Shown here: in pieces, positions 11,314 to 60,700 of the stretch | How the letters are laid out: every line of letters starts with the position of its first letter | Numbering within the stretch: position 1 is the stretch's first letter | Assembly (NCBI GenBank): GCA_903855135.1 | Contig: CAINYB010000022.1 | Location: 1-62,837 of the forward strand | Source: an uncultured bacterium | GTDB lineage: Bacteria > Patescibacteriota > Patescibacteriia > UBA1558 > GWA2-36-10 | Length of the DNA: 62,837 nt | Reading direction: 5' to 3' | Translations under genes and position numbers: made by a program | The notes under the pieces: generated by a model | What the model saw: the letters and a program-made list of their open reading frames with translations, nothing else | What the model was told of the DNA's origin: nothing | Database searches by the model: none

Positions 11314-14259
11314 TTATTTCATATCACAACTTCCTTTAAATCCACATTGTTTACTGCACTCTGTACAGCCTCCTAATTTGACCATCACGCCTTGTTTGCA
11401 ATTAGGACAGATGTTTCCCGTGCTAGAACCATAGTTGCTGTCTGGGATTACTACAGGCTCTACAGTAGGCTCTTTGGCGGGTTCAAAGTGTTGGTGTGGA
11501 TTTTGCATTTCTGGAATTTCTACTTTATCTTTTTCTGCAAAAACTACAACTTTATCATCTCCACTAGATTTTTTGTAAGACATGTTCTTTTTTTCCGTAT
11601 CAGCAGAAGTAGAGAGTACTTGTTCAGTGCGAGAGTTATCGCGGTAAATTGTCACGCCTTTGCAACCAAGTTCATAAGCTTTTTCATAAAGCTCGGCGGT
11701 TTCTTCAACGCTGAAATTGGCAGGTGCATTAGCAGTTTTAGAAATAGAGGAGTCAGTCCAACGTTGTACAGCTGCTTGTACTCGGATGTGATCCATCGGG
11801 CTTAAGTCCATAGCAGAGACAAAAAATTCTGGTAACTTTTCTGTTTCGTCTTGGTAAGCGACAGCCAGTGGGATAAGCACTTCATGAAAACCTAGACGAC
11901 TTTGTCTAAAAAACTTGAAAGCATAATATGGTTCGATGCCAGTCGAGGTACCGAGCATAGAGCCGACAGTGCCGGTTGGTGCTTGGGTAGTCAAAGTGAC
12001 ATTGCGAATACCTTTTTCGCGGATAGCATTGCGTACATCGTCAGGCATAGTTTTCATAAAGCCAGAGTCAAGGAATTTTTCCGCTTCAAATTTAGGGAAA
12101 GCACCTTTTTCTTGAGCTAGCTCAGCTGACGCTTTGTACATCTCTTGGGTGATGATGTTATAGATTTTATCTATAAACTCCAAAGACTCATCAGAGCCAT
12201 AGCGCATACGTAATTTGATCAACAGTTCACCAAGTCCTAGCGTACCACCACCGACACGACGCTCTGATTTTTGATTGTCTTCATTTTCTTTAAAGTGATA
12301 AGGAGTAAGGTCAATGATATTATCTAAAAAACGAGTGAGGAGGCGGGCAGATTTTTTCAAAGCATCCCAATTCATTTTATAAACTGGACCGACAGTATCT
12401 TCACCGATGCTTTCGGCAAACGAAGCAAGGTATAAATGTCCTAAATTACAGACGCCCCAGCCTGGCAAGCCCTGTTCACCACAAGGATTGGTAGCAATGA
12501 TTTTATTAAAGTAATAAGAGTTGGATAATTTATTGTAGCGCTCCATAAAGACGATGCCAGGTTCAGCAGAAGCGTGAGCAGAAGCGATAATTTTATTCCA
12601 AAGTTCACGCGCTTTGATAGTCTTATATACTTTGGTTGGGTAGCCCATTTTTTTCCAAGCGTGTAAATCACCATTCCAAGTCTGATGATAGATTTCAGAG
12701 TAAGTCGGATTTTCATAATCAGGAAATTCTAAATTCCAATATTGGTCATGCTTGACGGCAGACATAAATTCATCAGACACCATGACAGAAATATTAGCAT
12801 TTTCTATTTGGCCAGCTGTGGTTTTACTTTCAATAAATTCTATCACATCAGGATGCCAGTCCCATTGCATCAGCATCAAAGCACCACGACGAGAACCACC
12901 TTGCTCGATCAAAGCTGTAGTGTAGGAGAAAAGTCCACCCCAAGAAACTGAGCCAGAGGATTTGCCGTGCACACCTTTGACATAAGCGTAGTGTGGGCGA
13001 AGGGCACTCAAAGACATACCAACGCCACCACCACGAGACATGATTTCTACCATCTGATAAAGCGTATCTTGGATAATACCACGACGTGAGTCAGCGGGAT
13101 TTGGGATAACGTAGCAATTAAACAAAGTAAGATTGCCAGTATAGTGATCTTTGCTATCGACATTAGCTCCGGTCATGATACGACCAGCAGGTTGAATATA
13201 TTTTTTATTTAGTTGTTCAAAAAATTCTTCCAAGTATTGAGTTTTTTTCTCGTCAGTTTTTTCTATGCTAGCTACTGCTTTAGCAACTCGGCGATGAGCA
13301 TCGTCGATGGACTCTATGGGCTTATCGCATTTGCGCAATTCTTGGGTGAATTCAAAATTATTTTCTTGATCGGCATAAATACCAGTCACCATATGTAAGA
13401 CCACGCGACCGTCGTCTAATATTTTTTTGATGACACCCAAATCTTTTTTCGGATATTTACGATCTTCTTTGGTGATGACGATCACTAAATCACCAGTTTC
13501 AATATCATCTTTTTTTTGTTTGATCGAATATCTATCTAAGAAAATAATTCTACCCAAAGCATCAAAATTGACGGATTGATTTAAGATGTGTTTAGCTTGT
13601 TTGCTTAAAAAAATATTTTTAGCTTCCAAGTCTTTTACTTCTTGGCAAGTCACTTCTTTGCCGTACTCAAGGCGCGCTTTTTTGCGCTGCTCACGATATA
13701 AAATAAAAGCTTTAGCAGTTTTAGCCCAGTTGTTTTGGATCAAAATAATTTCTATTACATCTTGGATTTCTTCCACAGTCGGAATTATTTTGCCATCAAA
13801 CTTATGTTCTAAAACTCCCAAAACAATGTCAGCTAATTTTTGTGCTTCTTGAGCATCAAACTCTCCAGTAGCAAGGCCAGCTTTTTGGATAGCATTAAAA
13901 ACTTTAGCTTTATCAAAGTCAACGATAGTGCCGTCACGCTTTTTAATTTTTTTCACTTCATCAGCGGTTTGGAAGTTAAGATTTTGGTGGTGGGAGCGGG
14001 ACTTAAAATAAGCACTGGAGGCTGAAGCCAGCTCATTATCTAACAAAATTATGTTCACTGCTGTACGCACATCGTCAGCTGATAAATAATCAGTGTCAAA
14101 ATTTTCCTCTAAGTACCGGATAATATCATCTGTCAGTTTTTCGGCCCTGTTTTCAGCTTCAAGTCCTGCTGACTGTAAAGCAGCCTTCAGGGAGAGGACT
14201 AGTTTGTGCTGGTCAAAGTTTTCTTTTTGACCATTGCGTTTGACAATTTGCTTGAGCAT
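11314..14259 (-). CDS. nrdJ: adenosylcobalamin-dependent (class II) ribonucleotide reductase with N-terminal ATP-cones and C-terminal Cys-rich zinc-ribbon tail
   Basis: 981 aa; ATP-cone VKRNG..E.F...K, catalytic NPCGEQ, TNPCGE region, tail CPNCK..CTECSKQC. Confidence 0.9.
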   Translation of the reverse strand: MLKQIVKRNGQKENFDQHKLVLSLKAALQSAGLEAENRAEKLTDDIIRYLEENFDTDYLSADDVRTAVNIILLDNELASASSAYFKSRSHHQNLNFQTADEVKKIKKRDGTIVDFDKAKVFNAIQKAGLATGEFDAQEAQKLADIVLGVLEHKFDGKIIPTVEEIQDVIEIILIQNNWAKTAKAFILYREQRKKARLEYGKEVTCQEVKDLEAKNIFLSKQAKHILNQSVNFDALGRIIFLDRYSIKQKKDDIETGDLVIVITKEDRKYPKKDLGVIKKILDDGRVVLHMVTGIYADQENNFEFTQELRKCDKPIESIDDAHRRVAKAVASIEKTDEKKTQYLEEFFEQLNKKYIQPAGRIMTGANVDSKDHYTGNLTLFNCYVIPNPADSRRGIIQDTLYQMVEIMSRGGGVGMSLSALRPHYAYVKGVHGKSSGSVSWGGLFSYTTALIEQGGSRRGALMLMQWDWHPDVIEFIESKTTAGQIENANISVMVSDEFMSAVKHDQYWNLEFPDYENPTYSEIYHQTWNGDLHAWKKMGYPTKVYKTIKARELWNKIIASAHASAEPGIVFMERYNKLSNSYYFNKIIATNPCGEQGLPGWGVCNLGHLYLASFAESIGEDTVGPVYKMNWDALKKSARLLTRFLDNIIDLTPYHFKENEDNQKSERRVGGGTLGLGELLIKLRMRYGSDESLEFIDKIYNIITQEMYKASAELAQEKGAFPKFEAEKFLDSGFMKTMPDDVRNAIREKGIRNVTLTTQAPTGTVGSMLGTSTGIEPYYAFKFFRQSRLGFHEVLIPLAVAYQDETEKLPEFFVSAMDLSPMDHIRVQAAVQRWTDSSISKTANAPANFSVEETAELYEKAYELGCKGVTIYRDNSRTEQVLSTSADTEKKNMSYKKSSGDDKVVVFAEKDKVEIPEMQNPHQHFEPAKEPTVEPVVIPDSNYGSSTGNICPNCKQGVMVKLGGCTECSKQCGFKGSCDMK

Positions 14260-14316
14260 AGATTTTTGTTTAATTTTTTATATTTAAAAAAAGAAATTAT
14301 TTAGTAAAATAAAAAG

Positions 14317-14366
14317 CCTTAATATATATTTTGGCTAATTTTGTGGTACAACACTATATATAGTGC
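14317..14366 (-). promoter_or_regulatory. putative tandem NrdR boxes upstream of nrdJ
   Basis: Palindrome ACACTATATATAGTG at 14351-14365 matches the remembered NrdR-box consensus; second AT palindrome AATATATATT centred about 32 bp away. Confidence 0.45.
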
Positions 14367-14547
14367 CAGAAAGAATTATAGCACACAAGATAGAGTTTTA
14401 CCAAATTTTATTTTTATTTTAGTGATTTTTCTTTTCGCTTGTAATTATAGAGTCTTTTTTTGAAAAAGTCTAATCTAGTTTTTAGATTGCCAAATGGCCT
14501 TATTTTTGTTATATTTGAGGAAGTTTTGATTATTAAATGAATTTTAT

Positions 14548-14742
14548 ATGGCTTTCAAAAAGCAGCCAAAACACAATTTTAAACCCAAAGCCAGTTCTAA
14601 AGTGCCAACTGTAGAAGGTCCATTGATGGATCCAGTTTTATATGTGGGAGATTTGGATTTAGAAAAATACCCAAGATTAGAGCAAAAACAGGATGATAGA
14701 AATACTCAAGAAGTAGAAAATCCGCTTAATCAAAGACGTTAA
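14548..14742 (+). CDS. hypothetical small protein
   Basis: 64-aa ORF followed by hairpin AAAATCGTTAGAAATAGCGATTTT; no family recognised. Confidence 0.35.
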   Translation: MAFKKQPKHNFKPKASSKVPTVEGPLMDPVLYVGDLDLEKYPRLEQKQDDRNTQEVENPLNQRR

Positions 14743-14836
14743 GTTTATATAGAAAATCGTTAGAAATAGCGATTTTTTGTTTTGGCTAATATTAGCCATT
14801 TTTATGTGTTTTGAGCTATTTATAGAGGCTTATGAC

Positions 14837-14865
14837 TTGACAAGCATTAGAAAGCATGCTATTAT
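14837..14865 (+). promoter_or_regulatory. sigma70-like promoter TTGACA-17-TATTAT
   Basis: Read directly; about 380 nt upstream of the ATG at 15248. Confidence 0.55.
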
Positions 14866-15247
14866 GTTTCTTTACAGATAAAGAAGCGGATATTTTACAA
14901 GTGAATATTTTTAAAAGGAAGGAGAGAGCCTTTTTAAACAAGTATTAAAGATAATAAGCGTTTTGGCTTTCTACAACCTTTTTTAGGTAGTCAAAACATT
15001 TATTATCTTTTTTGTTTAGGGAAAATAGTGGAGAGGAGAGAGCGATATTTTTCATCTTCACCATTTTCTCTAAAAGATATTTTGGAGATTGCTTGTTCTT
15101 TAAAAAACTTGTTTGTTATTTTGCCACCTCATTCTTCTTGAGAATTTCACTTTTGATTTTTAATTTAGAAATTAGAAGCGAAGTTCTCAAAGGGGGAACT
15201 AAACACATCCATTTGCATTCAATGTGCAGGTGGAAAAGGAGGATATC

Positions 15248-15574
15248 ATGAGAATCAAGGAGACACTTGCCTTGTTTGCGGCCATTTGCGTGGCTGCTGC
15301 GGGTCTGCTCTCCATGCAGACCTTGCATGACCTTGGTGCACTGGCTTACCAGTGGCCACAGGTCATGTGCACGAGCAGGAGACTCACTTATGGCTTTCTG
15401 GCCATGGGTGGCATCTCGCTGCTCTTGGCGGGCGTAGTCTTTGTGTGTCAGTCGGCACATAAGGGCTACAAACTGATCGGCCTAATCGGCAGAAGTTGGC
15501 GTTTTAGCCGGCTTCGCTGGAAGTTTCGCTGTTGGTGCTATAGCATGCATCGCAGTGAGTTTGGCCGCTTGTAA
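15248..15574 (+). CDS. GC-rich ORFan membrane protein (island 2)
   Basis: Start moved to ATG 15248 (AAGGAGG SD); 108 aa; two hydrophobic helices then Arg/Trp/Cys-rich tail. Confidence 0.55.
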   Translation: MRIKETLALFAAICVAAAGLLSMQTLHDLGALAYQWPQVMCTSRRLTYGFLAMGGISLLLAGVVFVCQSAHKGYKLIGLIGRSWRFSRLRWKFRCWCYSMHRSEFGRL

Positions 15575-15694
15575 CTCAGCCGGGGTTTAAGTAGATTTTC
15601 CCTGTAAATAAAAATCTACGTTAAGGTAAGTTAGCTAACCTTAAATAGCTGACAAGGTTTAAAAAAAGGAGAAAGTTCTGGTAAAACTTTCTCC

Positions 15695-15758
15695 CTCTGT
15701 CTCGAGATGTATGTCTCGACTGATGAGCCCTTCGATAAAAACTCAGGGCGAAACAGAG
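15695..15758 (+). ncRNA. hammerhead self-cleaving ribozyme, type III topology
   Basis: CUCUG-UC|UCGAGA(UGUAUG)UCUCGA-CUGAUGA-GCCCU(13 nt)AGGGC-GAAA-CAGAG: all invariant core nucleotides, three Watson-Crick stems, GUC cleavage triplet (cut after C15701). Confidence 0.8.
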
Positions 15759-15967
15759 AAATTGTTCTTTCCCTTCGACTCATCCCGTCAAACGGGATTC
15801 GCTCAGGGTGAAAGATGATTTGTTCTTTGATAAAAATTTTGGCAAATATTTCTTGTTTCGTTTTAGAAGTTAAATTAATTTTTAGAACGAAGCAAGAAAA
15901 AATGTTTTGTACAGACTCAAAGAGAGTTTGTAGAGCATTGCTTGTCCTTGCTTCAAAGGAGGATAAA

Positions 15968-16501
15968 ATGAACGCGAATACCGCCGTCCCTACCCACACC
16001 ATCATTCGCCCTGGGCAAGTGTGGTCTGACTTTGGACCACAAGATGTCCTAGTTCTAGGTCCGCCTCAGCCATTGCCCAATGGACAGTTTGCTGTCACGG
16101 TGGTGTGTCTATCACAGCACAAGGCTGGTCCGCTGGCGCTATGTGAGTTGGTGTTATTCGAACCATTGGCTGGTGGCATGGAAGGCGTGATCCTACAGTT
16201 TCATGCCATAGCCACTGTACTATGTGAAGATTTGGTTCTTCACATGTGGGATGTGGATGACAGTGCGTTCCCTCTTATCAAGGAAACTTGGAAGTATGCG
16301 AGTGGTCTTCGTGGGCGACCGCAGACGGAAGAGTTCCCTGGTGTCCCAGATCTTTCATGGGATATTGGAGAGGAAGTGCCCAGCTTTGAGGAACTTCGAG
16401 CAATCGGAAATCCGATCGGCTGGAATCAGTCTTGGGCATTGTCGCTCATGTCTGATATGATCGCGCGGTTTCATGCCGCCCTTCACGCTGGCGAAGAGTA
16501 A
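15968..16501 (+). CDS. GC-rich ORFan (island 2)
   Basis: Start moved to ATG 15968 (AAAGGAGGA SD); 177 aa; followed by hairpin GGGAGAATT..AATTCTCCC. Confidence 0.55.
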   Translation: MNANTAVPTHTIIRPGQVWSDFGPQDVLVLGPPQPLPNGQFAVTVVCLSQHKAGPLALCELVLFEPLAGGMEGVILQFHAIATVLCEDLVLHMWDVDDSAFPLIKETWKYASGLRGRPQTEEFPGVPDLSWDIGEEVPSFEELRAIGNPIGWNQSWALSLMSDMIARFHAALHAGEE

Positions 16502-16827
16502 GCCAGTAAAGGTTATCGGGAGAATTACCTTTAAAATTCTCCCTCTCTACTCCAGCTTATTATTTATTGAGAGAGTAAATAATAAGTTGAAGTGGCATCG
16601 TAAAATGATTTTATGATGGACAGGAAACAAAATTTGTAGTATAAATAAATATTATTAAATCAGTAAAAGCTCGCAAGGGCAGGAAAAGTATTTCTATTAG
16701 CATCTTTTCAAAATTCTCTCTCCTTTGAAAAAATGTAGGAATTCTTTTCATCACTGCGCTTGCGAACTCTTGCTGATTTTTTGTTTCAAAAAAAGAAGCC
16801 CCGGGTTCATCCCGGGGCGTGTGATGA

Positions 16828-17226
16828 TCATTCAAAGTCAGCATTGAGTTTATCGACTACCAGTTCGAGCGTGGCAGTGAAATTATTCTCATTAAAGGCT
16901 CTGACAAATCGATGCGCTTCGTGTTCTTGGTCTAATCCAGTTAAAGAAAAAACCAAAAGCTCTTCTGATGTTAGCACGCTCGCTAGATACATGATGGCAT
17001 AGCCACCAAACTCTAGACCATTGATCATTGCTTTTAAGCGAGGGATTTGTTCAGAGCAGTCTTTTAAAGCAAGGACAATGGTGATATCTGGATTAGCGTG
17101 TTCATCTACAAAGTAACAGTTGGCATCATTTAATATTTTGTATACCTTATTATGTACGGTATTCTCAAGGTCATGACCAACAAGACAAATTTTGACTGGG
17201 GTTGGGAAGTTAGGTACATCAGGCAT
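16828..17226 (-). CDS. ORFan, second gene of a coupled pair
   Basis: Start moved to ATG 17226 (GGAGG SD inside the upstream ORF); 132 aa; terminator GCCCCGGG-TTCAT-CCCGGGGC downstream. Confidence 0.55.
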   Translation of the reverse strand: MPDVPNFPTPVKICLVGHDLENTVHNKVYKILNDANCYFVDEHANPDITIVLALKDCSEQIPRLKAMINGLEFGGYAIMYLASVLTSEELLVFSLTGLDQEHEAHRFVRAFNENNFTATLELVVDKLNADFE

Positions 17227-17572
17227 GATTGATACCTCCGATTTCTTCAGTGAGGAAGCAGAGCTTCTCAACTGTATTTTTACTTACTAGACGGCGATTA
17301 AAACGGTTGCTACCCAAAATTCGGAAAGAGCCAGTGATAAAAGACACTTCTACTAGGATGAAATGCTTGAGTTTGATATTTTGAATTCTGAAAGTCAGAC
17401 TTTCGAATTCGCCCTTACTAATCGTGACTACTACTTGAGCAGTAGCTACTTCACGAAATACATGATGGCCTAAAGCATTGAGTAGAGCTTTATATTGCTC
17501 TAATAAACAGAACGCTTTGTGGCTCAGTTGTTTTGGTTCTGTGAGGTTGATGATCAATCTTTGCCGTGCCAT
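17219..17572 (-). CDS. ORFan, first gene of a coupled pair
   Basis: 117 aa; AAAGGAGG SD; 8-nt overlap with the next ORF; 30 nt downstream of the beta-CASP gene. Confidence 0.55.
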   Translation of the reverse strand: MARQRLIINLTEPKQLSHKAFCLLEQYKALLNALGHHVFREVATAQVVVTISKGEFESLTFRIQNIKLKHFILVEVSFITGSFRILGSNRFNRRLVSKNTVEKLCFLTEEIGGINHA

Positions 17573-17602
17573 TTTGTGCCTCCTTTAGCTTTTGAATGAT
17601 TT

Positions 17603-18961
17603 TTAATTTAAAAGAACGGTCTCGTTATTCTTCATTATTTCTGCCTTTATGTCAAGGACTTCAGCGATTTTCTTTTGGAAAGCAAGGAGGTTATCAGCAT
17701 CACTGTGGACGAGATAGATTTTGGCTTGATTGCTAATGTTTTTGATCCAAGCCAATAATTCATTTTGATCAGCATGAGCAGAAAAGCCGTCTATTTGATC
17801 CACTGAAGCTTTGAGTGGTATTTTTTTGCCATAATAATCAAAATCAAAAGCACCGTGAGTAATATGGTGTCCTAAAGTACCTGGTACTTGGAAGCCCATA
17901 AATAAAATATAGTTTCTTGGGTCAGAGGCATAGTGAGCTAGATGATGGATGAGTCTGCCGCCTTCAGCCATGCCAGAGCCAGCTAAAACTATTTTTGGTG
18001 GTGGCACACTATTTATTTTTTTTGATTCACGGCTATTAGTAGTGACTTTGAGATGCGGAAAATTAAACAAATCGTTGTCATATTTTAGTTTATCTAAAGC
18101 CGTTTGGTTTAATAAGTTTGAGTGTTGTTTGTAGATTTTGGTAGCAGCAGCTGCTAAGGGACTATCTAGATAGACTGGTACGCGAAAATCTAAATGATTT
18201 TCATAGTAGTCATTTAAAACACTCAAGACATCTTGCGTTCTTTCCATAGCAAAGACAGAAATCACTAAAGTGCCAGCTTTGGTGGTGATACTTTGCACAG
18301 CAGTCAATAATTTTTTTTCCCGATTTTTTTTGTCAGCATGGACACTATTTCCATAGGTACTTTCTAAAATCAAATAATCTGCTTGACCTAAAGTTTCGGC
18401 TGTTTTCATCAATGGCATATCTTGGCCACCTAAGTCTCCAGAAAAGACAATGTTTTTTCCACCAGTATTAAATTTTATAAAGGCCGCACCTAAAATATGG
18501 CCAGCATTATATAAAGTGAAATCAAGCTTGTTGTTTAGTTTAAAATTTTGGTGATAATTTATCGGTAGCAAAGCTTTGATAGTTTTTGCGACATCTTCTT
18601 GGCTATATAAAATTGGTAGATTATGTTCACGTGCTTTGTCAATCAAAATTTCTTGGTTATCGGCTAAAATTATTTCTGCTAATTGGCAAGTCGCTGGCGT
18701 GGCATAGATTTTTCCTTTGTAGCCTTTTTTTAAAAGCAAAGGTAAGCGTCCGCAGTGATCCAAATGAGCGTGACTTAAAATTACAGCTTTGATTTTTTTG
18801 ACATCAAAAGGAAAATCTTCCCAGTTTTTGAGATAAGTTTCCATGCCGCTTTGGAATAAACCGCAGTCCACTAATACTTGATAACCATCGATTTCTAAAA
18901 GATGACAAGAGCCCGTCACTTCACCGGCCGCTCCAAAACTTGTTAATTTTATTTCTGGCAT
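17603..18961 (-). CDS. MBL-fold beta-CASP family hydrolase (RNase J/CPSF-like)
   Basis: 452 aa; HAHLDHCGRLP metallo-beta-lactamase motif, C-terminal GFSAHAD motif. Confidence 0.8.
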   Translation of the reverse strand: MPEIKLTSFGAAGEVTGSCHLLEIDGYQVLVDCGLFQSGMETYLKNWEDFPFDVKKIKAVILSHAHLDHCGRLPLLLKKGYKGKIYATPATCQLAEIILADNQEILIDKAREHNLPILYSQEDVAKTIKALLPINYHQNFKLNNKLDFTLYNAGHILGAAFIKFNTGGKNIVFSGDLGGQDMPLMKTAETLGQADYLILESTYGNSVHADKKNREKKLLTAVQSITTKAGTLVISVFAMERTQDVLSVLNDYYENHLDFRVPVYLDSPLAAAATKIYKQHSNLLNQTALDKLKYDNDLFNFPHLKVTTNSRESKKINSVPPPKIVLAGSGMAEGGRLIHHLAHYASDPRNYILFMGFQVPGTLGHHITHGAFDFDYYGKKIPLKASVDQIDGFSAHADQNELLAWIKNISNQAKIYLVHSDADNLLAFQKKIAEVLDIKAEIMKNNETVLLN

Positions 18962-32698: not shown

Positions 32699-33712
32699 TT
32701 AAATTTTCATTATCAAATCCTCACCAAACCATTTTTTGTAGAGCAAATCGTATTGGCCAGATTCTTTAAGATTTAAAATTGCTTGATTGATTTTCTCCTC
32801 TAATTGGCTAGGTTGTTGCAAAGCAATTCCATATTGTTGTTTGTCAAACATCTCGCCAACAATTTCTATGTAATTATCCTTATCATTTTTTTCGTAATAA
32901 AGCACAGCAGGTGCATCAAAGACAACTGCGTCAACCTCTTCGTTTTTAAGTTTGATATAGGCTTCTTCAATTTTTAAAACAGCAACGATTTTTGCACCTA
33001 CCTTTTTAAGAATGCTTTCACTGGTAGATTCTCCAACTGTAGCTACTCTCTTATTTGACAAATCCCCACTATTATTGATTTCGCCTTTAATTTTCTTAGC
33101 CGCAAGAAATGCAGTAAATTGAGCAACTGCTAAACTAATCATTATTACGCCACCAAAAATAAGGGCTATAACAATAATTCTTCCGAGCCATGAATGCGGG
33201 ACATAATCTCCATAACCAACTGTAGTTATAGACACGACTGTAAGCCAGAAAGATTCAAAAATGCCAGGGAAATAAGTTGCGCTAAAAGTATGAGTATCTT
33301 TTTCTGCAAACCATATTAGATTGCCAAAAACAAAAATATAGATAGCCATAAAAAGAATCATCGATGCGATGGTTTTGTACTCTCCAATAATAATATTTTT
33401 AAGAGTTTTAAAAAAGTTTAATTTACTACTGTTTTTATTAACAGAAATTAATATTCCAGAATCCAATGTTGCATGAGAAAAATTTATAATTTTTTCCCGA
33501 CTTTCATTGATAGTTATTCCAGTCAATCCCACATCAACTTTTTTTTCTACCAATAAGGGAATAATTTTTTTAAAATTATGTTTTTCATACTCAAAATCTA
33601 TACCAGTTATTTTGGCAATAGCTTCCCATAAATCTATTTCAAACCCCTTATACTTTTTATCTTGTTTAAAGACTAGGGGAGGAAATTCAGCAATAGCGAC
33701 TTTTATTTTCAT
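32699..33712 (-). CDS. GluR0-like ligand-gated potassium channel (solute-binding domain interrupted by a K+ pore)
   Basis: 337 aa; selectivity filter TTVGYGD between two TM helices, flanked by periplasmic-binding-protein type 3 segments. Confidence 0.75.
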   Translation of the reverse strand: MKIKVAIAEFPPLVFKQDKKYKGFEIDLWEAIAKITGIDFEYEKHNFKKIIPLLVEKKVDVGLTGITINESREKIINFSHATLDSGILISVNKNSSKLNFFKTLKNIIIGEYKTIASMILFMAIYIFVFGNLIWFAEKDTHTFSATYFPGIFESFWLTVVSITTVGYGDYVPHSWLGRIIVIALIFGGVIMISLAVAQFTAFLAAKKIKGEINNSGDLSNKRVATVGESTSESILKKVGAKIVAVLKIEEAYIKLKNEEVDAVVFDAPAVLYYEKNDKDNYIEIVGEMFDKQQYGIALQQPSQLEEKINQAILNLKESGQYDLLYKKWFGEDLIMKI

Positions 33713-50563: not shown

Positions 50564-50860
50564 TTAAAGCAAATCCACCACTAAAACGCCTTCACCACCT
50601 TGGGCAAATTTTCCTAAAGATACTTTAGCTATACTAGGATCTTGACTCAAATATTTTTGTAAGAGTGGTTTAATGACAGCGCCATTTTTTGAATGCTTGC
50701 CTTGGCCGACAATAAAAGCTATTTTAGTATAATTATTTTTTTGTGCATCTTTGATAAAATCATCAGCTAAACTATAAATTTTTTGTGGACTTAAAATACC
50801 CAAATCATGAAAATCAAGTTCAGCTTGGATTTTATTTAAATTTTCGTATTTATTAGCCAT
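50564..50860 (-). CDS. Smr domain protein
   Basis: 98 aa; LDFHDLG...GQGKHS pattern of Smr/MutS2 C-terminal nucleases. Confidence 0.7.
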   Translation of the reverse strand: MANKYENLNKIQAELDFHDLGILSPQKIYSLADDFIKDAQKNNYTKIAFIVGQGKHSKNGAVIKPLLQKYLSQDPSIAKVSLGKFAQGGEGVLVVDLL

Positions 50861-51651
50861 TATAATTTTTGATAATAAAATTCTGCTGCTAAATCACTTT
50901 GGAAATGCAAAGCTTTTTTTATTTGTGCGACTTGTGCGCCATTTTGTTTTAAGTAATAGGCTAAAGTATGGCGTAAAACTTGAGGATTAAGGCGTAAAAC
51001 ATCAGACATCTGATGACTGTATTTTTCAATGATACGTTCAACTGATCTAACAGACAAAGCTTGGTTTTTATTTTTGCCAGCGTGGTCAAAATTGATAAAT
51101 AAATATGGTGATTCGTCTTTTCTTTTTTGTAAATATTTTAGTAAATAAAATTTAGTAGTATTATTTAATTTGGCTTCTTGTTTTTGGTAAGAAATTATAT
51201 TTTTATTTAAATTTAGATCTTTTTTTTCTAGAGAGACGATAGTTTTAGCTTTAAAACCACTGTAGTATAAAATTTCTAATAAAATTTTATCACGCAAGCT
51301 GAGCAAATCACTGGGGTGGGGGAGAAGATTGAGATATTCGCTTAATTGTTTTTTAGTGAGGACATGAATGTTTTGTTTTTCGATAGACAAGAGCGTGATT
51401 TGCTGTTTTTGTTTGCTAAATTTTAAGTAGTCGTTGATGACGCTCAAACGTAAATTAATAGTAGCGATTTTTTTGTATTTATGTAGCAAAAATTCACGAT
51501 ATTTTTCACAATTTTTTGGCGTTATTTTTTCTTTATCTAAATAAGCTAAAAAATGTTTCAAGTGCCAGAGATAAGTGACTTGACTACTTAAAGATATTTT
51601 TTTAGTGTGTAAATATTTTTGGTATTTTTTTATATTTTCTGCTTGTGTCAT
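50860..51651 (-). CDS. tyrosine recombinase (Xer/phage-integrase family)
   Basis: 263 aa; box II VLRHTLAYYL, ..LHF......EFYY catalytic Tyr region; first catalytic Arg position apparently Lys (SGFKAKT) by hand alignment. Confidence 0.75.
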   Translation of the reverse strand: MTQAENIKKYQKYLHTKKISLSSQVTYLWHLKHFLAYLDKEKITPKNCEKYREFLLHKYKKIATINLRLSVINDYLKFSKQKQQITLLSIEKQNIHVLTKKQLSEYLNLLPHPSDLLSLRDKILLEILYYSGFKAKTIVSLEKKDLNLNKNIISYQKQEAKLNNTTKFYLLKYLQKRKDESPYLFINFDHAGKNKNQALSVRSVERIIEKYSHQMSDVLRLNPQVLRHTLAYYLKQNGAQVAQIKKALHFQSDLAAEFYYQKL

Positions 51652-58276: not shown

Positions 58277-58888
58277 TTACTTAGATTTTTTAAGACCTTT
58301 TTTTATTATTTTCGTCATTAATTCATTCTTGCCAGACATTCCTAAAATGCAAGCCTTGAAATAATCAGAGTCTTTGGTTTTGCTCCAGTCGATAGGATCA
58401 TAACCCAAGTTAACTACCAGCAGGTCTAAGAATAAACGAATAGTTCTACCATTACCCTCACGAAAAGGATGAATAGCATTATATTCATTATGGATTAAAG
58501 TAAGTTTTTTAGATATTGTATCTTTATTATCTTTACTATTTGGTAGTTTCTTTTTTAACAAAAGTTCAAATTTTTGCAAAGTTTGATCAATGTATTTTAC
58601 AGAAGCAAACAACATGCCATCTTTCGAAATATCTACATTTCTTACTTTCCCAGCCCAAGAGTATAGAGTGTGAAAAAAATATTTATGAATAGAAAATAAT
58701 AAAGAAAGGTCAAATTTGACCTCATCGTCTTTTAGTAATTCAAAAAAATGTGTGTAAGTATCTGCTAGTAATAAAGTTTCAGCTTCTTCTAATTTTTTCT
58801 TATCCTTGATGCCCAGTTTATTTTCTAAAACACCATTGTCAATACCAGCTTTCTTATTACTAACTTGATACCGAGAATGCCCGATCAT
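58277..58888 (-). CDS. Fic family protein (class I toxin-like)
   Basis: 203 aa; canonical Fic motif HPFREGNGRTIR. Confidence 0.85.
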   Translation of the reverse strand: MIGHSRYQVSNKKAGIDNGVLENKLGIKDKKKLEEAETLLLADTYTHFFELLKDDEVKFDLSLLFSIHKYFFHTLYSWAGKVRNVDISKDGMLFASVKYIDQTLQKFELLLKKKLPNSKDNKDTISKKLTLIHNEYNAIHPFREGNGRTIRLFLDLLVVNLGYDPIDWSKTKDSDYFKACILGMSGKNELMTKIIKKGLKKSK

Positions 58889-59257: not shown

Positions 59258-59902
59258 TTATTTTGAATCATTAAATATTTTAGCGACCAATTCTTTACGA
59301 GCATAGAATGCACGTGTGATTGGTCTTCTTTTGCCAGTTTTAGGATTTATTCCACCTTGTCCTTTTGTTCTAGCTTGGATCCACTTACCATCTTTGCCGG
59401 TTAAACTACTAAAGCCTTTCTTAATTAGTTTTGCTCTAATAAAATCATAGTCAGCTTTTATCTCTTTTATTAAATCATCAGTTTCAGAAAAATCTAAGCT
59501 AGTAACCTTTAGTAATTCGGCATTATCAGAATTTTTTCCATGCCACATGACCGCGCAAAAAACAATGGATTTCAATTTTTCCCACACATGACTTTTAAAG
59601 AATTCCTGTTCTTTCAATTCTTTTTGGTTAATCATTGTGATGGCCATTGTTTCCTTTGGTATTAGCTTATCTTTCACATGATAAAAACTTACAGATTTTA
59701 ATTCATAAGACAGACCATTCGGAGCCTTTGAAACATTGTTTTCCAAGCCAGCTAAAAGTTCCAAAATTAAACCTTTCCAACCCTTATTTTGTTTGCCAGT
59801 TTCATAGGTTGTTATTTTTAGCTTTTTAGCCAGCTGTCTTAAATCTTGGCCAATGTATTTTTTTAAATTTTTGATAGCTGTTGCTCTAGTAACGATTTTC
59901 AT
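59258..59902 (-). CDS. MutH/Sau3AI-family type II restriction endonuclease
   Basis: 214 aa; NKGWKGLILELLAG....YELKS, WIQARTKG and RAFYARK align by eye with the E. coli MutH blocks DKGW.G.LLE..LG, ELKT, YLQIRPK, RGFYLKK. Confidence 0.7.
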   Translation of the reverse strand: MKIVTRATAIKNLKKYIGQDLRQLAKKLKITTYETGKQNKGWKGLILELLAGLENNVSKAPNGLSYELKSVSFYHVKDKLIPKETMAITMINQKELKEQEFFKSHVWEKLKSIVFCAVMWHGKNSDNAELLKVTSLDFSETDDLIKEIKADYDFIRAKLIKKGFSSLTGKDGKWIQARTKGQGGINPKTGKRRPITRAFYARKELVAKIFNDSK

Positions 59903-59911
59903 AAATTTATT

Positions 59912-60700
59912 TTAAGATTTTGGTAAATCATTTAATCTTTTTATGGATAAGTCTAAATATTTTTTTTCTAAATCAATACCAATAAATTTTCTATCATTTA
60001 AGACAGCTGCTAAACCAGTAGTGGAGGAGCCTGTAAATGGATCCAGTATCAAATCACCCTTGTCTGTGCTGGCTAAAATTATTCTCACTAATAAATCCAT
60101 TGGTTTTTGCGTGGGATGCTTACCAAATTTTTTTTCATCTTTCTTGGGCGGATATATTGCCCAGACACTTCTCATTTGAGTGTTTGGTTTTTTCAAGAAA
60201 TCACTTTGCCAGTCACCATCTTTCATCGCTTTATAGTTGAATTTATGTTTTCCTTTTTTATCTTTTCTTGCCCAGATTAAAGTCTCGTGACTGGCAGTAA
60301 AAAAACGACAACTTAAGTTTGGTGAAGCGTTTGGTTTGAACCAAGCAACATCATTTAGAATATGAAAGTGATTAATTTGTAGGGCAAATCCGCATTGGTA
60401 AATAGAGTGGTATGTGCCACTAATCCAAATAGTTCCACCAGGCTTTAAAACTCTATGGCATTCTTTAATCCAAGAAAGATGAAATTCAAAGTCTTTTTTA
60501 CAACCATTACTAACATCCCATTCACCTTTGTTAACACTTACCATTTTGCCGGCGTGCACAGTAAAGCCACCATTTGAGAGTAAGTATGGTGGATCAGCAA
60601 AAATCATGTCAACGGAGTTTTCTTTTGAATTAGCTAAAAACTCTAAAGAATTGGCATTATATAAGGCAAATTTCCCTTTTTTGTAGTATGGTTTTATCAT
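59912..60700 (-). CDS. beta-class N6-adenine/N4-cytosine DNA methyltransferase
   Basis: 262 aa; IFADPPY near the N-terminus, ILDPFTGSSTTG SAM motif near the C-terminus. Confidence 0.85.
   Translation of the reverse strand: MIKPYYKKGKFALYNANSLEFLANSKENSVDMIFADPPYLLSNGGFTVHAGKMVSVNKGEWDVSNGCKKDFEFHLSWIKECHRVLKPGGTIWISGTYHSIYQCGFALQINHFHILNDVAWFKPNASPNLSCRFFTASHETLIWARKDKKGKHKFNYKAMKDGDWQSDFLKKPNTQMRSVWAIYPPKKDEKKFGKHPTQKPMDLLVRIILASTDKGDLILDPFTGSSTTGLAAVLNDRKFIGIDLEKKYLDLSIKRLNDLPKS

What the first reader, a model, noticed from the sequence alone, without database searches (positions are those of the whole stretch)
15695..15758. Canonical type III hammerhead ribozyme between two GC-rich ORFan genes
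The plus strand reads CUCUG-U-C / UCGAGA-UGUAUG-UCUCGA / CUGAUGA / GCCCU-(13-nt loop)-AGGGC / GAAA / CAGAG. Every invariant hammerhead core position is present in the correct order: C3-A9 = CUGAUGA, G12A13A14, A15.1:U16.1 and C17. Stem I is 6 bp and loop-closed, stem II is 5 bp and loop-closed, and stem III is 6 bp and open, which is type III topology. The predicted cut is 3' of C15701 in a GUC triplet. The motif lies in a 393-nt, hairpin-dense spacer between ORF 15248-15574 and ORF 15968-16501. The nearest recognisable upstream promoter is at 14837, so cleavage would split a bicistronic mRNA. A partial echo of stem II plus GAAA (CCCTTCGA...CTCAGGG-T-GAAAG, 15771-15814) follows directly. I cannot tell whether such ribozymes have been catalogued in this lineage.
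Basis: partly seen in the sequence, partly recalled or inferred. Interest (0 to 1): 0.85.

Follow-up and report, generated by a model that had tools for sequence, protein, structure and literature searches.

The report
Hammerhead ribozyme between cassette genes
A genuine type III hammerhead self-cleaving RNA lies between two foreign-looking genes in an ultra-small (Patescibacteria) bacterium. It is a recurring spacer part of a small, swappable gene-cassette island, so it is a new example of a known kind of ribozyme in a lineage and setting where I found none described.

Summary
Window 15695-15758 (+) carries every invariant hammerhead core position, three stems in type III topology, and a GUC cleavage triplet (cut after C15701). 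Rfam Hammerhead_3 scores 42.3 bits, E = 5e-8 to 2.5e-7.

Five further variants of the same element sit in equivalent spacers of related metagenomic islands. Their core is identical apart from the free position N7 and one inserted U in L136, and all three stems covary: 97.8% of cells paired, 12 of 15 pairs changed on both sides, 0 of 500 shuffles as good.

The host is a roughly 35% GC Patescibacteria chromosome. The ribozyme lies in a roughly 2 kb island of 53-55% GC ORFan genes that is missing from the closest relatives. The island has AT-rich spacer modules that are better conserved than the proteins, and no integrase next to it.

The most likely function is co-transcriptional cleavage of the island's polycistronic mRNA into single-gene mRNAs. 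That is inferred, not shown. The "echo" is a relic of a second ribozyme. Verdict: real, a new member of a known kind, moderate interest.

The parts
14771..14782 (+). Left copy of the 12-nt direct repeat GATTTTTTGTTT at the island boundary. It is also the T-tail of the terminator of the 64-aa gene.
   Evidence: Read. Homology to relatives without the island breaks at about 14747. The sequence is T-rich, so the repeat could be chance.
14837..14865 (+). Promoter-like site TTGACA-17-TATTAT with an upstream TG; the presumed island promoter.
   Evidence: 11 of 12 matches. The region just downstream (14894-15048) is 88% identical to the start of the L129 island.
14866..15247 (+). Long AT-rich (31% GC) non-coding leader. 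It contains a TTGTTCTTT junction box at 15093-15101 and a leader hairpin (about 15135-15193) upstream of the ORF1 Shine-Dalgarno sequence.
   Evidence: (15135-15193 is 95% identical to the leader downstream of L129 ribozyme 1).
15248..15574 (+). ORF1: 108 aa, 54.7% GC. By eye it is a small membrane protein with two hydrophobic segments. Strong Shine-Dalgarno sequence. No family hit.
   Evidence: The gene was called on this strand in L008.
15591..15645 (+). Two 3'-UTR hairpins of the ORF1 cassette: GTAGATTT..AAATCTAC and TTAAGG..CCTTAA.
   Evidence: 15575-15697 is 89% identical to L005 559-679.
15668..15694 (+). 10-bp hairpin GGAGAAAGTT-(7 nt)-AACTTTCTCC, preceded by A7 and directly abutting the ribozyme. 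After cleavage it would lie 7 nt from the new 3' end. Read on the minus strand it looks like an intrinsic terminator (hairpin followed by T7).
   Evidence: Present next to the ribozyme in the window, L004, L005, L129 and L135, and in degenerate form (GGGGATAAGTG..CACTTTCTCC) in L134. Compensated variants (GGGAGAATT/AATTCTCCC, GAGAAAATG/CATTTTCTC) occur in the ribozyme-less spacers.
15695..15758 (+). Type III hammerhead ribozyme. Predicted self-cleavage between C15701 and U15702.
15762..15770 (+). TTGTTCTTT box immediately 3' of the ribozyme; the apparent cassette junction.
   Evidence: 3 of the 6 window occurrences lie inside the island. The same left flank is joined to different right flanks in different islands.
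15771..15814 (+). The "echo": an extended stem II hairpin plus GAAA plus GAUGA. It is a relic of a second hammerhead that lacks stem I, CUGAUGA and the 5' strand of stem III.
   Evidence: The same element is in L001 at 95% identity, with a substitution that breaks a pair.
15820..15828 (+). Second TTGTTCTTT box, which starts the ORF2-type leader.
   Evidence: L005 and L004 carry the same leader.
15849..15899 (+). 51-nt AT-rich imperfect palindrome (hairpin) in the ORF2 leader, conserved upstream of the ORF2 homologues in every locus where that region was read.
   Evidence: The microRNA-family matches there are only generic hairpin hits.
15955..15962 (+). Shine-Dalgarno sequence AAAGGAGG of ORF2, 5 nt before the ATG.
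   Evidence: Read.
15968..16501 (+). ORF2: 177 aa, 52.6% GC, an ORFan. The first and last ~12-13 codons are conserved at the DNA level with relatives, while the body shows only 35-38% amino-acid identity.
16502..16797 (+). Conserved non-coding tail of the island (the aligned block 16464-16794, which also covers the last 38 nt of ORF2, is 87-93% identical to L001-L004). It holds a ribozyme-less spacer type (hairpin 16518-16543, then a long hairpin, then a third hairpin) and the right copy of the direct repeat at 16775-16786.
   Evidence: No Rfam family hit.

Best explanation
This is a bona fide type III hammerhead self-cleaving ribozyme. It is encoded on the sense strand of the intercistronic spacer of a two-gene cassette island in a Patescibacteria (CPR) chromosome.

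Proposed mechanism:
1. The island is transcribed as one RNA from the promoter at 14837.
2. As the spacer emerges, the 64-nt motif folds locally and cuts itself between C15701 and U15702.
3. The ORF1 mRNA then ends in a 2',3'-cyclic phosphate, 7 nt downstream of a conserved 10-bp hairpin.
4. The ORF2 mRNA then begins with a 5'-hydroxyl, followed by the two closed ribozyme stems, the relic hairpin, an AT-rich hairpin and the Shine-Dalgarno sequence.
5. The net effect is to turn a polycistronic transcript into separate single-gene mRNAs with defined, hairpin-protected ends. Each cassette's expression then becomes independent of its neighbours, like a natural counterpart of the synthetic RiboJ insulator.

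The ribozyme is one module of a repeated spacer: 3'-UTR hairpins, then the ribozyme, then a TTGTTCTTT box, then a gene-specific leader. This spacer separates cassettes in related islands.

Shown: the motif, its statistical significance, conservation of the core with compensatory changes in the stems, and the modular island context.
Inferred: co-transcription, cleavage in vivo, and the effect on mRNA fate.
For: Motif and significance:
- Complete core and type III topology.
- RF00008: 42.3 bits, E = 4.9e-8 and 2.5e-7.
- One descriptor hit in the window against 0.043 per shuffle.
- The minimum-free-energy fold of the isolated RNA is the three-way junction, here and in 4 of 5 relatives.

Comparative evidence:
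- Six distinct variants occupy the equivalent spacer position: window; L129 (45.1 bits); L004 (40.2 bits); L005, which is identical to L135; L134; and L136.
- The core is identical apart from the free position N7 and one inserted U in L136. 97.8% of stem cells are paired, and 12 of 15 pairs changed on both sides.
- 0 of 500 column shuffles were as good, and slid-partner controls paired only 30-41%.

Orientation and transcription:
- The ribozyme is on the same strand as both ORFs.
- No + strand terminator-like site was found in the spacer.
- The only promoter-like site near ORF2 overlaps its ATG.

Reproducibility:
- The identical locus was recovered in at least 8 contigs from independent assemblies.

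Literature:
- Multiple hammerheads flanking single genes of varying identity are known in bacterial prophage regions. They cleave in vitro and in E. coli, and processing into single-gene mRNAs has been proposed (PMC3088659).
- A ribozyme followed by a hairpin upstream of a ribosome-binding site standardises and raises expression in E. coli (RiboJ, PMC6206723).
Against: - The score is below Rfam's gathering cut-off (42.3 against 48.5).
- No loop-loop tertiary contact could be identified with confidence. By eye there are at most 3 possible base pairs between loop 1 (GUAU) and loop 2, so the rate at physiological Mg2+ is unknown.
- In the 396-nt spacer fold, stems I and II persist but stem III is replaced by other pairings. 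Cleavage would therefore depend on co-transcriptional folding.
- The islands also contain decayed copies: the echo, a GAAACAGAG stub after the 224-aa genes, and a C.U mismatch in stem I of L004. Individual copies are evidently dispensable.
- There are no transcript data. All relatives are metagenomic contigs.
Confidence: 0.75

Rival explanations
1. Cassette-junction element that acts at the DNA level. The conserved spacer module, ribozyme-like part included, would be mainly a recombination site (attC-like or homology-driven) for shuffling cassettes. RNA cleavage would be secondary or irrelevant.
For: - Spacers are 87-95% identical between organisms whose flanking beta-CASP proteins are only 62-65% identical and whose ORF2 proteins are 35-38% identical.
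- The same left flank (ribozyme plus TTGTTCTTT) is joined to different leaders, and the same leader to different left flanks.
- Relic half-ribozymes sit at junctions.
- The island is missing from the closest relatives and is flanked by a 12-nt direct repeat.
- An attC-like idea has been raised for the DUF1874 motif, which occurs in consecutive intergenic regions without an integrase (PMC5737381).
Against: - A DNA recombination site has no reason to keep the hammerhead core positions, G10.1:C11.1 and a non-G at position 17 essentially unchanged (only the free position N7 differs, plus one inserted U in L136) while all stems vary.
- The apparent junction is the TTGTTCTTT box 3' of the ribozyme, not the ribozyme itself.
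- No integrase is adjacent. The only tyrosine recombinase in the window is 34 kb away.
- The two roles are not mutually exclusive.
Confidence: 0.1
2. Inactive or decaying relic. The motif descends from a ribozyme but no longer cleaves at a useful rate in this genome.
For: - Decayed copies are common in these islands: the echo at 15771-15814, GAAACAGAG stubs, the stem I mismatch in L004, and an A.A mismatch in L134.
- The 13-nt loop 2 looks like a deletion derivative of the longer echo stem.
- No tertiary contact was identified.
Against: - Core and all three stems are intact here, and the sequence is identical in the three independent contigs in which it was read (L006-L008), out of at least 8 contigs carrying the locus.
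- The compensatory pattern across variants indicates purifying selection on the fold.
Confidence: 0.1
3. Chance resemblance to the hammerhead consensus in an AT-rich, hairpin-dense spacer.
For: The score is below Rfam's gathering threshold. The hammerhead core is short.
Against: - E = 2.5e-7 or better.
- 0 of 300 shuffled windows reach comparable stems.
- Five independent sister variants covary.
Confidence: 0.01

Closest known systems
Hammerhead ribozyme, type III (Rfam RF00008, clan CL00010)
   Same: Full catalytic core, three-way junction with stems I and II closed and stem III open, GUC cleavage triplet, G10.1:C11.1, and covarying stems.
   Different: Scores 42.3 bits, below the 48.5 gathering cut-off. 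The cost comes from a 5-nt insertion in loop 1, a 13-nt loop 2 and an unpaired outermost model pair. It is chromosomal, in a CPR bacterium, rather than in a viroid, satellite RNA or eukaryotic repeat.
Tandem hammerheads flanking single genes in bacterial prophage-like regions (Perreault et al. 2011, PMC3088659; for example the A. tumefaciens triple hammerhead around ardA)
   Same: Sense-strand ribozymes sit in intergenic regions of short ORFan-rich gene blocks, and gene identities vary between loci. In the related island formed by L129 and L004, one gene is flanked by two copies. Related islands carry a mobile-element-type gene (STIV_B116-like/DUF1874).
   Different: No prophage genes or integrase are next to the island. 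The host is Patescibacteria. The cargo is GC-rich in an AT-rich genome. The ribozyme is one part of a fixed, reusable spacer module with a junction box.
DUF1874 RNA motif arrays (Weinberg et al. 2017, PMC5737381)
   Same: A structured element recurs in consecutive intergenic regions between short ORFs, with no integrase at the array. A cassette/attC-like reading has been proposed. DUF1874 genes occur in the related islands.
   Different: No Rfam family other than Hammerhead_3 matched the island or its relatives at E <= 1. The recurring element here is a ribozyme with a known RNA activity. Membership of that motif was not demonstrated.
RiboJ synthetic insulator (sTRSV hammerhead plus 23-nt hairpin; PMC6206723)
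   Same: A hammerhead followed by hairpin(s) upstream of a ribosome-binding site. Cleavage removes the upstream context and leaves a structured 5' end.
   Different: RiboJ is engineered and sits between a promoter and a gene. This element is natural and intercistronic, with about 210 nt between the ribozyme and the start codon.
Integron gene-cassette arrays
   Same: A single upstream promoter, apparently promoterless short ORFs, hairpin-forming spacers, and variable cassette content at a fixed chromosomal site.
   Different: No IntI integrase is adjacent. The junction box TTGTTCTTT does not fit the GTTRRRY / RYYYAAC core sites (read by eye).

Membership tests
Hammerhead ribozyme (type III) | Invariant core C3 U4 G5 A6 N7 G8 A9 ... 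G12 A13 A14 | tested here: met
   CTGATGA at 15720-15726 and GAA at 15750-15752. Aligned to the RF00008 core without mismatch.
Hammerhead ribozyme (type III) | A15.1:U16.1 pair and H17 (not G) at the cleavage site | tested here: met
   A15753:U15700 and C15701. The L005 variant has U17.
Hammerhead ribozyme (type III) | Three helices around the core; I and II closed by loops, III open | tested here: met
   Stems of 7, 5 and 6 bp. The minimum-free-energy and centroid folds give the junction, as does the descriptor.
Hammerhead ribozyme (type III) | Helices supported by covariation among homologues while the core is conserved | tested here: met
   Six variants: 97.8% of cells paired, 12 of 15 pairs with two-sided changes, 0 of 500 shuffles as good, slid controls 30-41%. 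The alignment was built by me with loops trimmed, so it leans towards the structure.
Hammerhead ribozyme (type III) | Score at or above Rfam RF00008 gathering threshold (48.5 bits) | tested here: not met
   42.3 bits for the window, 45.1 for L129, 40.2 for L004. E-values of 1e-5 to 5e-8 are still significant. This is a curation cut-off, not a biochemical criterion.
Hammerhead ribozyme (type III) | Tertiary contact between stems I and II for fast cleavage at low Mg2+ | tested here: inconclusive
   Only a 3-bp loop-loop complementarity is seen by eye in the window copy. L129/L004 have an internal loop in stem I facing a CAAA loop. L005 has GUGU and GAAA loops.
Hammerhead ribozyme (type III) | Site-specific self-cleavage giving a 2',3'-cyclic phosphate and a 5'-OH | not testable with these tools
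   Needs in-vitro transcription or RNA-end sequencing.
Prophage-type tandem hammerhead gene blocks (Perreault 2011) | Ribozymes flank single genes or short gene blocks on the coding strand | tested here: met
   The window has one intact copy plus one relic between ORF1 and ORF2. In L129 plus L004 (99% identical over a 215-nt overlap), two copies flank the 227-aa gene.
Prophage-type tandem hammerhead gene blocks (Perreault 2011) | Located in a prophage or near an integrase | tested here: not met
   No phage or integrase domains in or next to the island. There is no megablast match to 50,697 phage records. The only recombinase is at 50860-51651.
Integron | IntI tyrosine recombinase and attC sites with RYYYAAC/GTTRRRY cores | tested here: not met
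   No adjacent integrase. The junction box TTGTTCTTT does not fit the core consensus (sequence read).
DUF1874 RNA motif | Match to the Rfam covariance model of that motif | tested here: not met
   No such hit at E <= 1 in the island or in L129, L005 or L001. I could not confirm that the family is in the library copy.

The most novel reading that the evidence does not exclude
The hammerhead may be an integral part of a previously undescribed, integrase-less gene-cassette system of Patescibacteria.

- GC-rich foreign ORFs would be captured and shuffled at TTGTTCTTT junction boxes within a horizontally exchanged AT-rich scaffold.
- Paired ribozymes would release single-gene RNAs with 5'-OH and 2',3'-cyclic-phosphate ends.
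- Beyond simple mRNA processing, such RNAs could be circularised (for example by an RtcB-type ligase) or serve as intermediates in cassette mobility, as in eukaryotic retrozymes.
Probability: 0.1. Interest if true: 0.8.

Novelty: new member of a known kind. Interest (0 to 1): 0.45.

Why it matters
The biological role of the hundreds of hammerheads in bacterial genomes is still unsettled.

- This locus is unusually clean: one promoter, two genes, one intact ribozyme and one relic.
- Natural "mutants" exist in sister islands: intact copies, mismatched copies, half-deleted copies, and spacers without a ribozyme.
- This makes the mRNA-processing or insulator hypothesis directly testable with short constructs.
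- It extends hammerheads to Patescibacteria; a library search found no paper connecting the two.
- It links the ribozyme to a small, horizontally exchanged cassette island that may be a route of gene gain in these reduced genomes.

Tried and rejected
1. Rfam at gathering threshold over the whole window found only 7 tRNAs. The hammerhead appears only at a permissive threshold.
2. Megablast of 14000-18000 against phage records found no match.
3. My pattern scan of genome contigs was too loose. I underestimated the chance hits (about 260 expected).
4. A tighter pattern in metagenome contigs gave 2 loci (L128, which is the same contig as L004, and L129). In viral contigs it gave none.
5. Pfam and PHROGs on ORF1, ORF2 and eight neighbouring or related cassette proteins gave one hit only, STIV_B116-like/DUF1874 in L129.
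6. The AlphaFold2 model of ORF2 from a 4-sequence alignment had pLDDT 41.8, which is unusable, so I ran no fold search.
7. DUF1874 homologues in 20 viral contigs carry no hammerhead and no other ribozyme at Rfam gathering. The link is therefore to the Patescibacteria islands, not to DUF1874 genes in general.
8. I rejected the echo as a second active ribozyme or an alternative 3' half. It has no CUGAUGA, no stem I, and its GAUGA strand does not pair with CUCUGU. It folds as one long hairpin.
9. The ribozyme-less spacer (16518-16625) as another ribozyme class: no Rfam hit, and by eye it is only a series of hairpins.
10. MAFFT alignments of the full ribozymes (A1, A2) put stem I out of register. 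I used a loop-trimmed alignment instead (A5).
11. MicroRNA-family matches at 15849-15899 and 15133-15195 are generic hairpin hits far below threshold.

Full report
**1. The observation**

Window 15695-15758 (+) reads CTCTGT-C-TCGAGAT-GTAT-GTCTCGA-CTGATGA-GCCCT-(13 nt)-AGGGC-GAA-ACAGAG.
- CUGAUGA (C3-A9), G12A13A14, A15.1:U16.1, G10.1:C11.1 and C17 in a GUC triplet at 15699-15701.
- Stems I (6 bp plus a U.G pair) and II (5 bp) are loop-closed, and stem III (6 bp) is open. That is type III.

The isolated 64-mer folds into exactly this junction (-19.4 kcal/mol, z = -2.66).

Rfam Hammerhead_3 (RF00008) aligns it end to end at 42.3 bits, with E = 4.9e-8 in a 421-nt scan and 2.5e-7 in a 2.1-kb scan. 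That is below the curated gathering score of 48.5, so the match is absent from the default scan. The lost bits come from insertions in both loops and an unpaired outermost model pair (alignment).

A simple descriptor finds one hit on both strands of the 62.8-kb window. The descriptor requires the core, stems of at least 4, 3 and 4 bp, and H17. It finds 0.043 hits per dinucleotide-shuffled window. None of 300 shuffles reached stems as long as the real ones.

- The spacer is 393 nt and extremely structured (z = -9.1).
- ORF1 and ORF2 are 54.7% and 52.6% GC in a 35.2% GC window.
- There is a near-consensus extended -10 promoter at 14837.

**2. Comparative evidence**

ORF2 (177 aa) has only four 90%-identity clusters among 5.8 billion proteins. 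I fetched their contigs, and later contigs carrying a neighbouring cassette gene. This gave five further versions of the element in the same kind of spacer:
- L129 (-) 930-864 (45.1 bits).
- L004 246-312 (40.2 bits).
- L005 678-728, identical to L135 986-1036.
- L134 1542-1609.
- L136 7246-7302, which has CUGACGA (N7 = C) and one extra U before stem II.

The core is identical in all six, apart from the free position N7 and the inserted U in L136. All three stems differ by compensatory changes (table).

On a loop-trimmed alignment (A5), 97.8% of 90 cells form standard pairs and 12 of 15 pairs show changes on both sides. No column shuffle out of 500 does as well. Sliding the partner by 1-3 columns drops pairing to 30-41%. 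Only two cells are unpaired: a C.U in stem I of L004 and an A.A in stem II of L134.

Four of the five relatives also fold as the junction in their minimum-free-energy structure. I built the alignment myself and the sequences are few, so the numbers are indicative. The pattern is still the classic signature of a functional hammerhead, and it outweighs the sub-threshold Rfam score.

**3. What surrounds it**

The window is a bacterial chromosome. It encodes ribonucleotide reductase, an RNase J-like beta-CASP protein, AhpC, Fe-SOD, PNPase, metal transporters, GreA and 7 tRNAs. The closest named homologues of the beta-CASP protein are from Candidatus Nomurabacteria, Parcubacteria and Patescibacteria, at 55-65% identity.

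The ribozyme lies in an island of about 2 kb (about 14747-16778). That island is absent from the closest relatives: L131 (95% beta-CASP identity), L130 (87%), L132 and L133 (Ca. Nomurabacteria). In those genomes the flanking 64-aa gene and the convergent operon are separated by about 80 nt. A 12-nt direct repeat, GATTTTTTGTTT, sits at both island ends (14771-14782 and 16775-16786). It is T-rich, so it may be chance.

The island has this order:
1. Promoter at 14837.
2. A 380-nt AT-rich leader.
3. ORF1, a 108-aa small membrane protein.
4. Three hairpins.
5. The ribozyme.
6. A TTGTTCTTT box.
7. The "echo".
8. A second box.
9. An AT-rich 51-nt hairpin.
10. Shine-Dalgarno sequence and ORF2.
11. A conserved non-coding tail of about 300 nt.

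Related islands occupy the same chromosomal site or lie on short contigs. They carry different and more numerous GC-rich ORFans:
- L129 plus L004 overlap by 215 nt at 99% identity. Together they read: 152 aa, 147 aa, 255 aa, an STIV_B116-like/DUF1874 protein (Pfam 2.4e-12), ribozyme 1, 227 aa, ribozyme 2, 224 aa, a GAAACAGAG stub, and the ORF2 homologue.
- L134, L135 and L005 show other orders.

The AT-rich spacers are 87-95% identical between islands whose ORF2 proteins are 35-38% identical and whose flanking beta-CASP proteins (window versus L004, P0013) are 62% identical. The same left flank (ribozyme plus box) is joined to different gene-specific leaders, and the same leader to different left flanks. 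The box therefore behaves as a cassette junction. No integrase is adjacent; the only tyrosine recombinase in the window is at 50860-51651.

The island is thus a horizontally exchanged, modular cassette array, and the ribozyme is one of its reusable spacer parts.

**4. The echo**

15771-15814 shares the outer stem II sequence (CCCTTCGA...CTCAGGG) and GAAA with the ribozyme. It lacks CUGAUGA, stem I and a matching stem III strand. It is bracketed by two junction boxes and folds as one long hairpin.

The same element occurs in L001 at 95% identity, with a G-to-T change that breaks a pair. I read it as the 3' half of a second ribozyme, left behind when most of a cassette was lost. The GAAACAGAG stubs after the 222-224-aa genes (a variant, GAAACGAG, in L134) and after the 154-aa gene of L135 (variant GAGACAGAG) look like similar relics.

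**5. How it most likely works**

Shown:
- The ribozyme is on the coding strand.
- No + strand terminator-like site lies between ORF1 and ORF2.
- The only promoter-like site near ORF2 ends inside its ATG.
- A conserved 10-bp hairpin (15668-15694) abuts the ribozyme in the window and in most sister islands (a degenerate form in L134), and compensated variants of it occur in the ribozyme-less spacers.

Inferred:
- The island is one transcript from the 14837 promoter, and the ribozyme cuts it after C15701 during transcription.
- ORF1 mRNA then ends in a 2',3'-cyclic phosphate just after a stable hairpin.
- ORF2 mRNA then starts with a 5'-OH and a series of hairpins ahead of its Shine-Dalgarno sequence.
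- This would uncouple the fates of neighbouring cassettes and give each a context-independent 5' end.

This matches the proposal of Perreault et al. for multiple hammerheads flanking single genes in prophage regions, which were shown to cleave in vitro and in E. coli (PMC3088659). [quoted passage not shown]

Caveats:
- No clear loop-loop tertiary contact was identified.
- In the full-spacer fold, stem III competes with other pairings.
- The presence of relic copies shows that individual ribozymes can be lost.

**6. Rivals**

- A DNA-level role as a recombination site fits the shuffling pattern. It also echoes the attC-like idea raised for the DUF1874 motif arrays (PMC5737381). It does not explain strict conservation of the catalytic core while the stems vary, and the junction is the box, not the ribozyme. 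The two roles could coexist.
- An inactive relic is possible but unlikely, given the intact core and stems and identical copies in three independent contigs (L006-L008) out of at least 8 carrying the locus.
- Chance is excluded.

**7. Comparison and novelty**

The element meets every sequence and structure criterion of the type III hammerhead family except Rfam's curated score cut-off. Cleavage itself cannot be tested here.

Hammerheads are known to be common in bacteria, often in mobile ORFan-rich blocks, so this is a new member of a known kind. What is new:
- The host lineage. A full-text search for "hammerhead" with "Patescibacteria" returned only two irrelevant papers.
- The absence of any prophage or integrase context.
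- The ribozyme's place in a fixed spacer module of a compact GC-rich cassette island, whose non-coding parts are better conserved than its proteins.

**8. Dead ends**

- Viral collections gave no related ribozyme.
- The ORF2 structure model was unusable.
- No family was found for ORF1, ORF2 or most cassette proteins.

Noticed in passing
window 14747-16797 (island); empty site in L131 11980-12058: The whole ORF1-ribozyme-ORF2 unit is an insertion of about 2 kb that is absent from the closest relatives. It is flanked by a 12-nt direct repeat GATTTTTTGTTT (14771-14782 and 16775-16786). Its AT-rich non-coding parts are 87-95% identical to islands in organisms whose flanking proteins are only 62-65% identical.
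   Followed up: partly
window 15093-15101, 15762-15770, 15820-15828; also L004, L129, L134, L135, L001: A TTGTTCTTT box marks every junction between a spacer or ribozyme and a gene-specific leader. Three of the six occurrences in the window lie inside the island. Left and right flanks recombine independently across islands, as at a cassette recombination site.
   Followed up: partly
window 16518-16625; L129 (-) about 2960-2870; L135 about 2115-2200: A second conserved spacer type without a ribozyme. It starts with the same kind of hairpin (GGGAGAATT..AATTCTCCC). Next comes CTACTCCAGCT-hairpin-AGTTGAAGTGG, which pairs into one long stem with compensated changes. A third hairpin follows. No Rfam hit; function unknown.
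   Followed up: partly
L129 (-) 1106-990; L005 259-370; L134 1366-1475; L135 391-500: A multi-stem RNA candidate of about 110 nt lies immediately 3' of the DUF1874/STIV_B116-like gene. It is 91% conserved, with a closing stem plus five hairpins and three pairs that covary. No Rfam match at E <= 1. It may relate to the published "DUF1874 motif", but this was not shown.
   Followed up: partly
window 15968-16005 and 16464-16501: The first and last ~12-13 codons of ORF2 are conserved at the DNA level with L001-L005 (82-95%). The body of the protein is only 35-38% identical. This points to a mosaic gene or to recombination breakpoints just inside the ORF.
   Followed up: no
window 15668-15694: The hairpin abutting the ribozyme is preceded by A7. 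On the minus strand it therefore reads as a canonical intrinsic terminator (hairpin plus T7) that would block antisense transcription into ORF1. The tool's terminator scan did not list it.
   Followed up: no
window 16611-16844 (-): A 77-aa ORF was called as a gene in some contigs (L006, L007) but not in L004. It lies in the conserved non-coding tail of the island and may not be a real gene.
   Followed up: no
L136 7246-7302: A more distant Patescibacteria-like contig has a hammerhead variant with N7 = C and an extra U between A9 and G10.1. It again sits between short ORFs downstream of a DUF1874 gene. The preceding spacers start with the same CTCCACTCTCGCC but lack the core, so they are probable relics.
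   Followed up: partly
window 59258-60700 (-), 58277-58888 (-), 50860-51651 (-): A MutH/Sau3AI-like endonuclease next to an N6/N4 DNA methylase (a likely restriction-modification pair), a Fic/DOC protein, and a Xer-like tyrosine recombinase. These are the only mobile or defence-type genes seen in the window, all more than 34 kb from the island.
   Followed up: no
window 32699-33712 (-): A GluR0-like protein that combines a solute-binding domain with a potassium-channel pore (SBP_bac_3, Lig_chan, Ion_trans_2). This is unusual cargo for a reduced genome.
   Followed up: no
L024 3369-3417; L012 about 763-799: The loose pattern scan picked up two other well-formed type III hammerheads in unrelated bacteria. 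The L024 copy (stem I CATAACT-GTGT-AGTTATG) follows a small membrane-protein gene and precedes a strong promoter-like site.
   Followed up: partly
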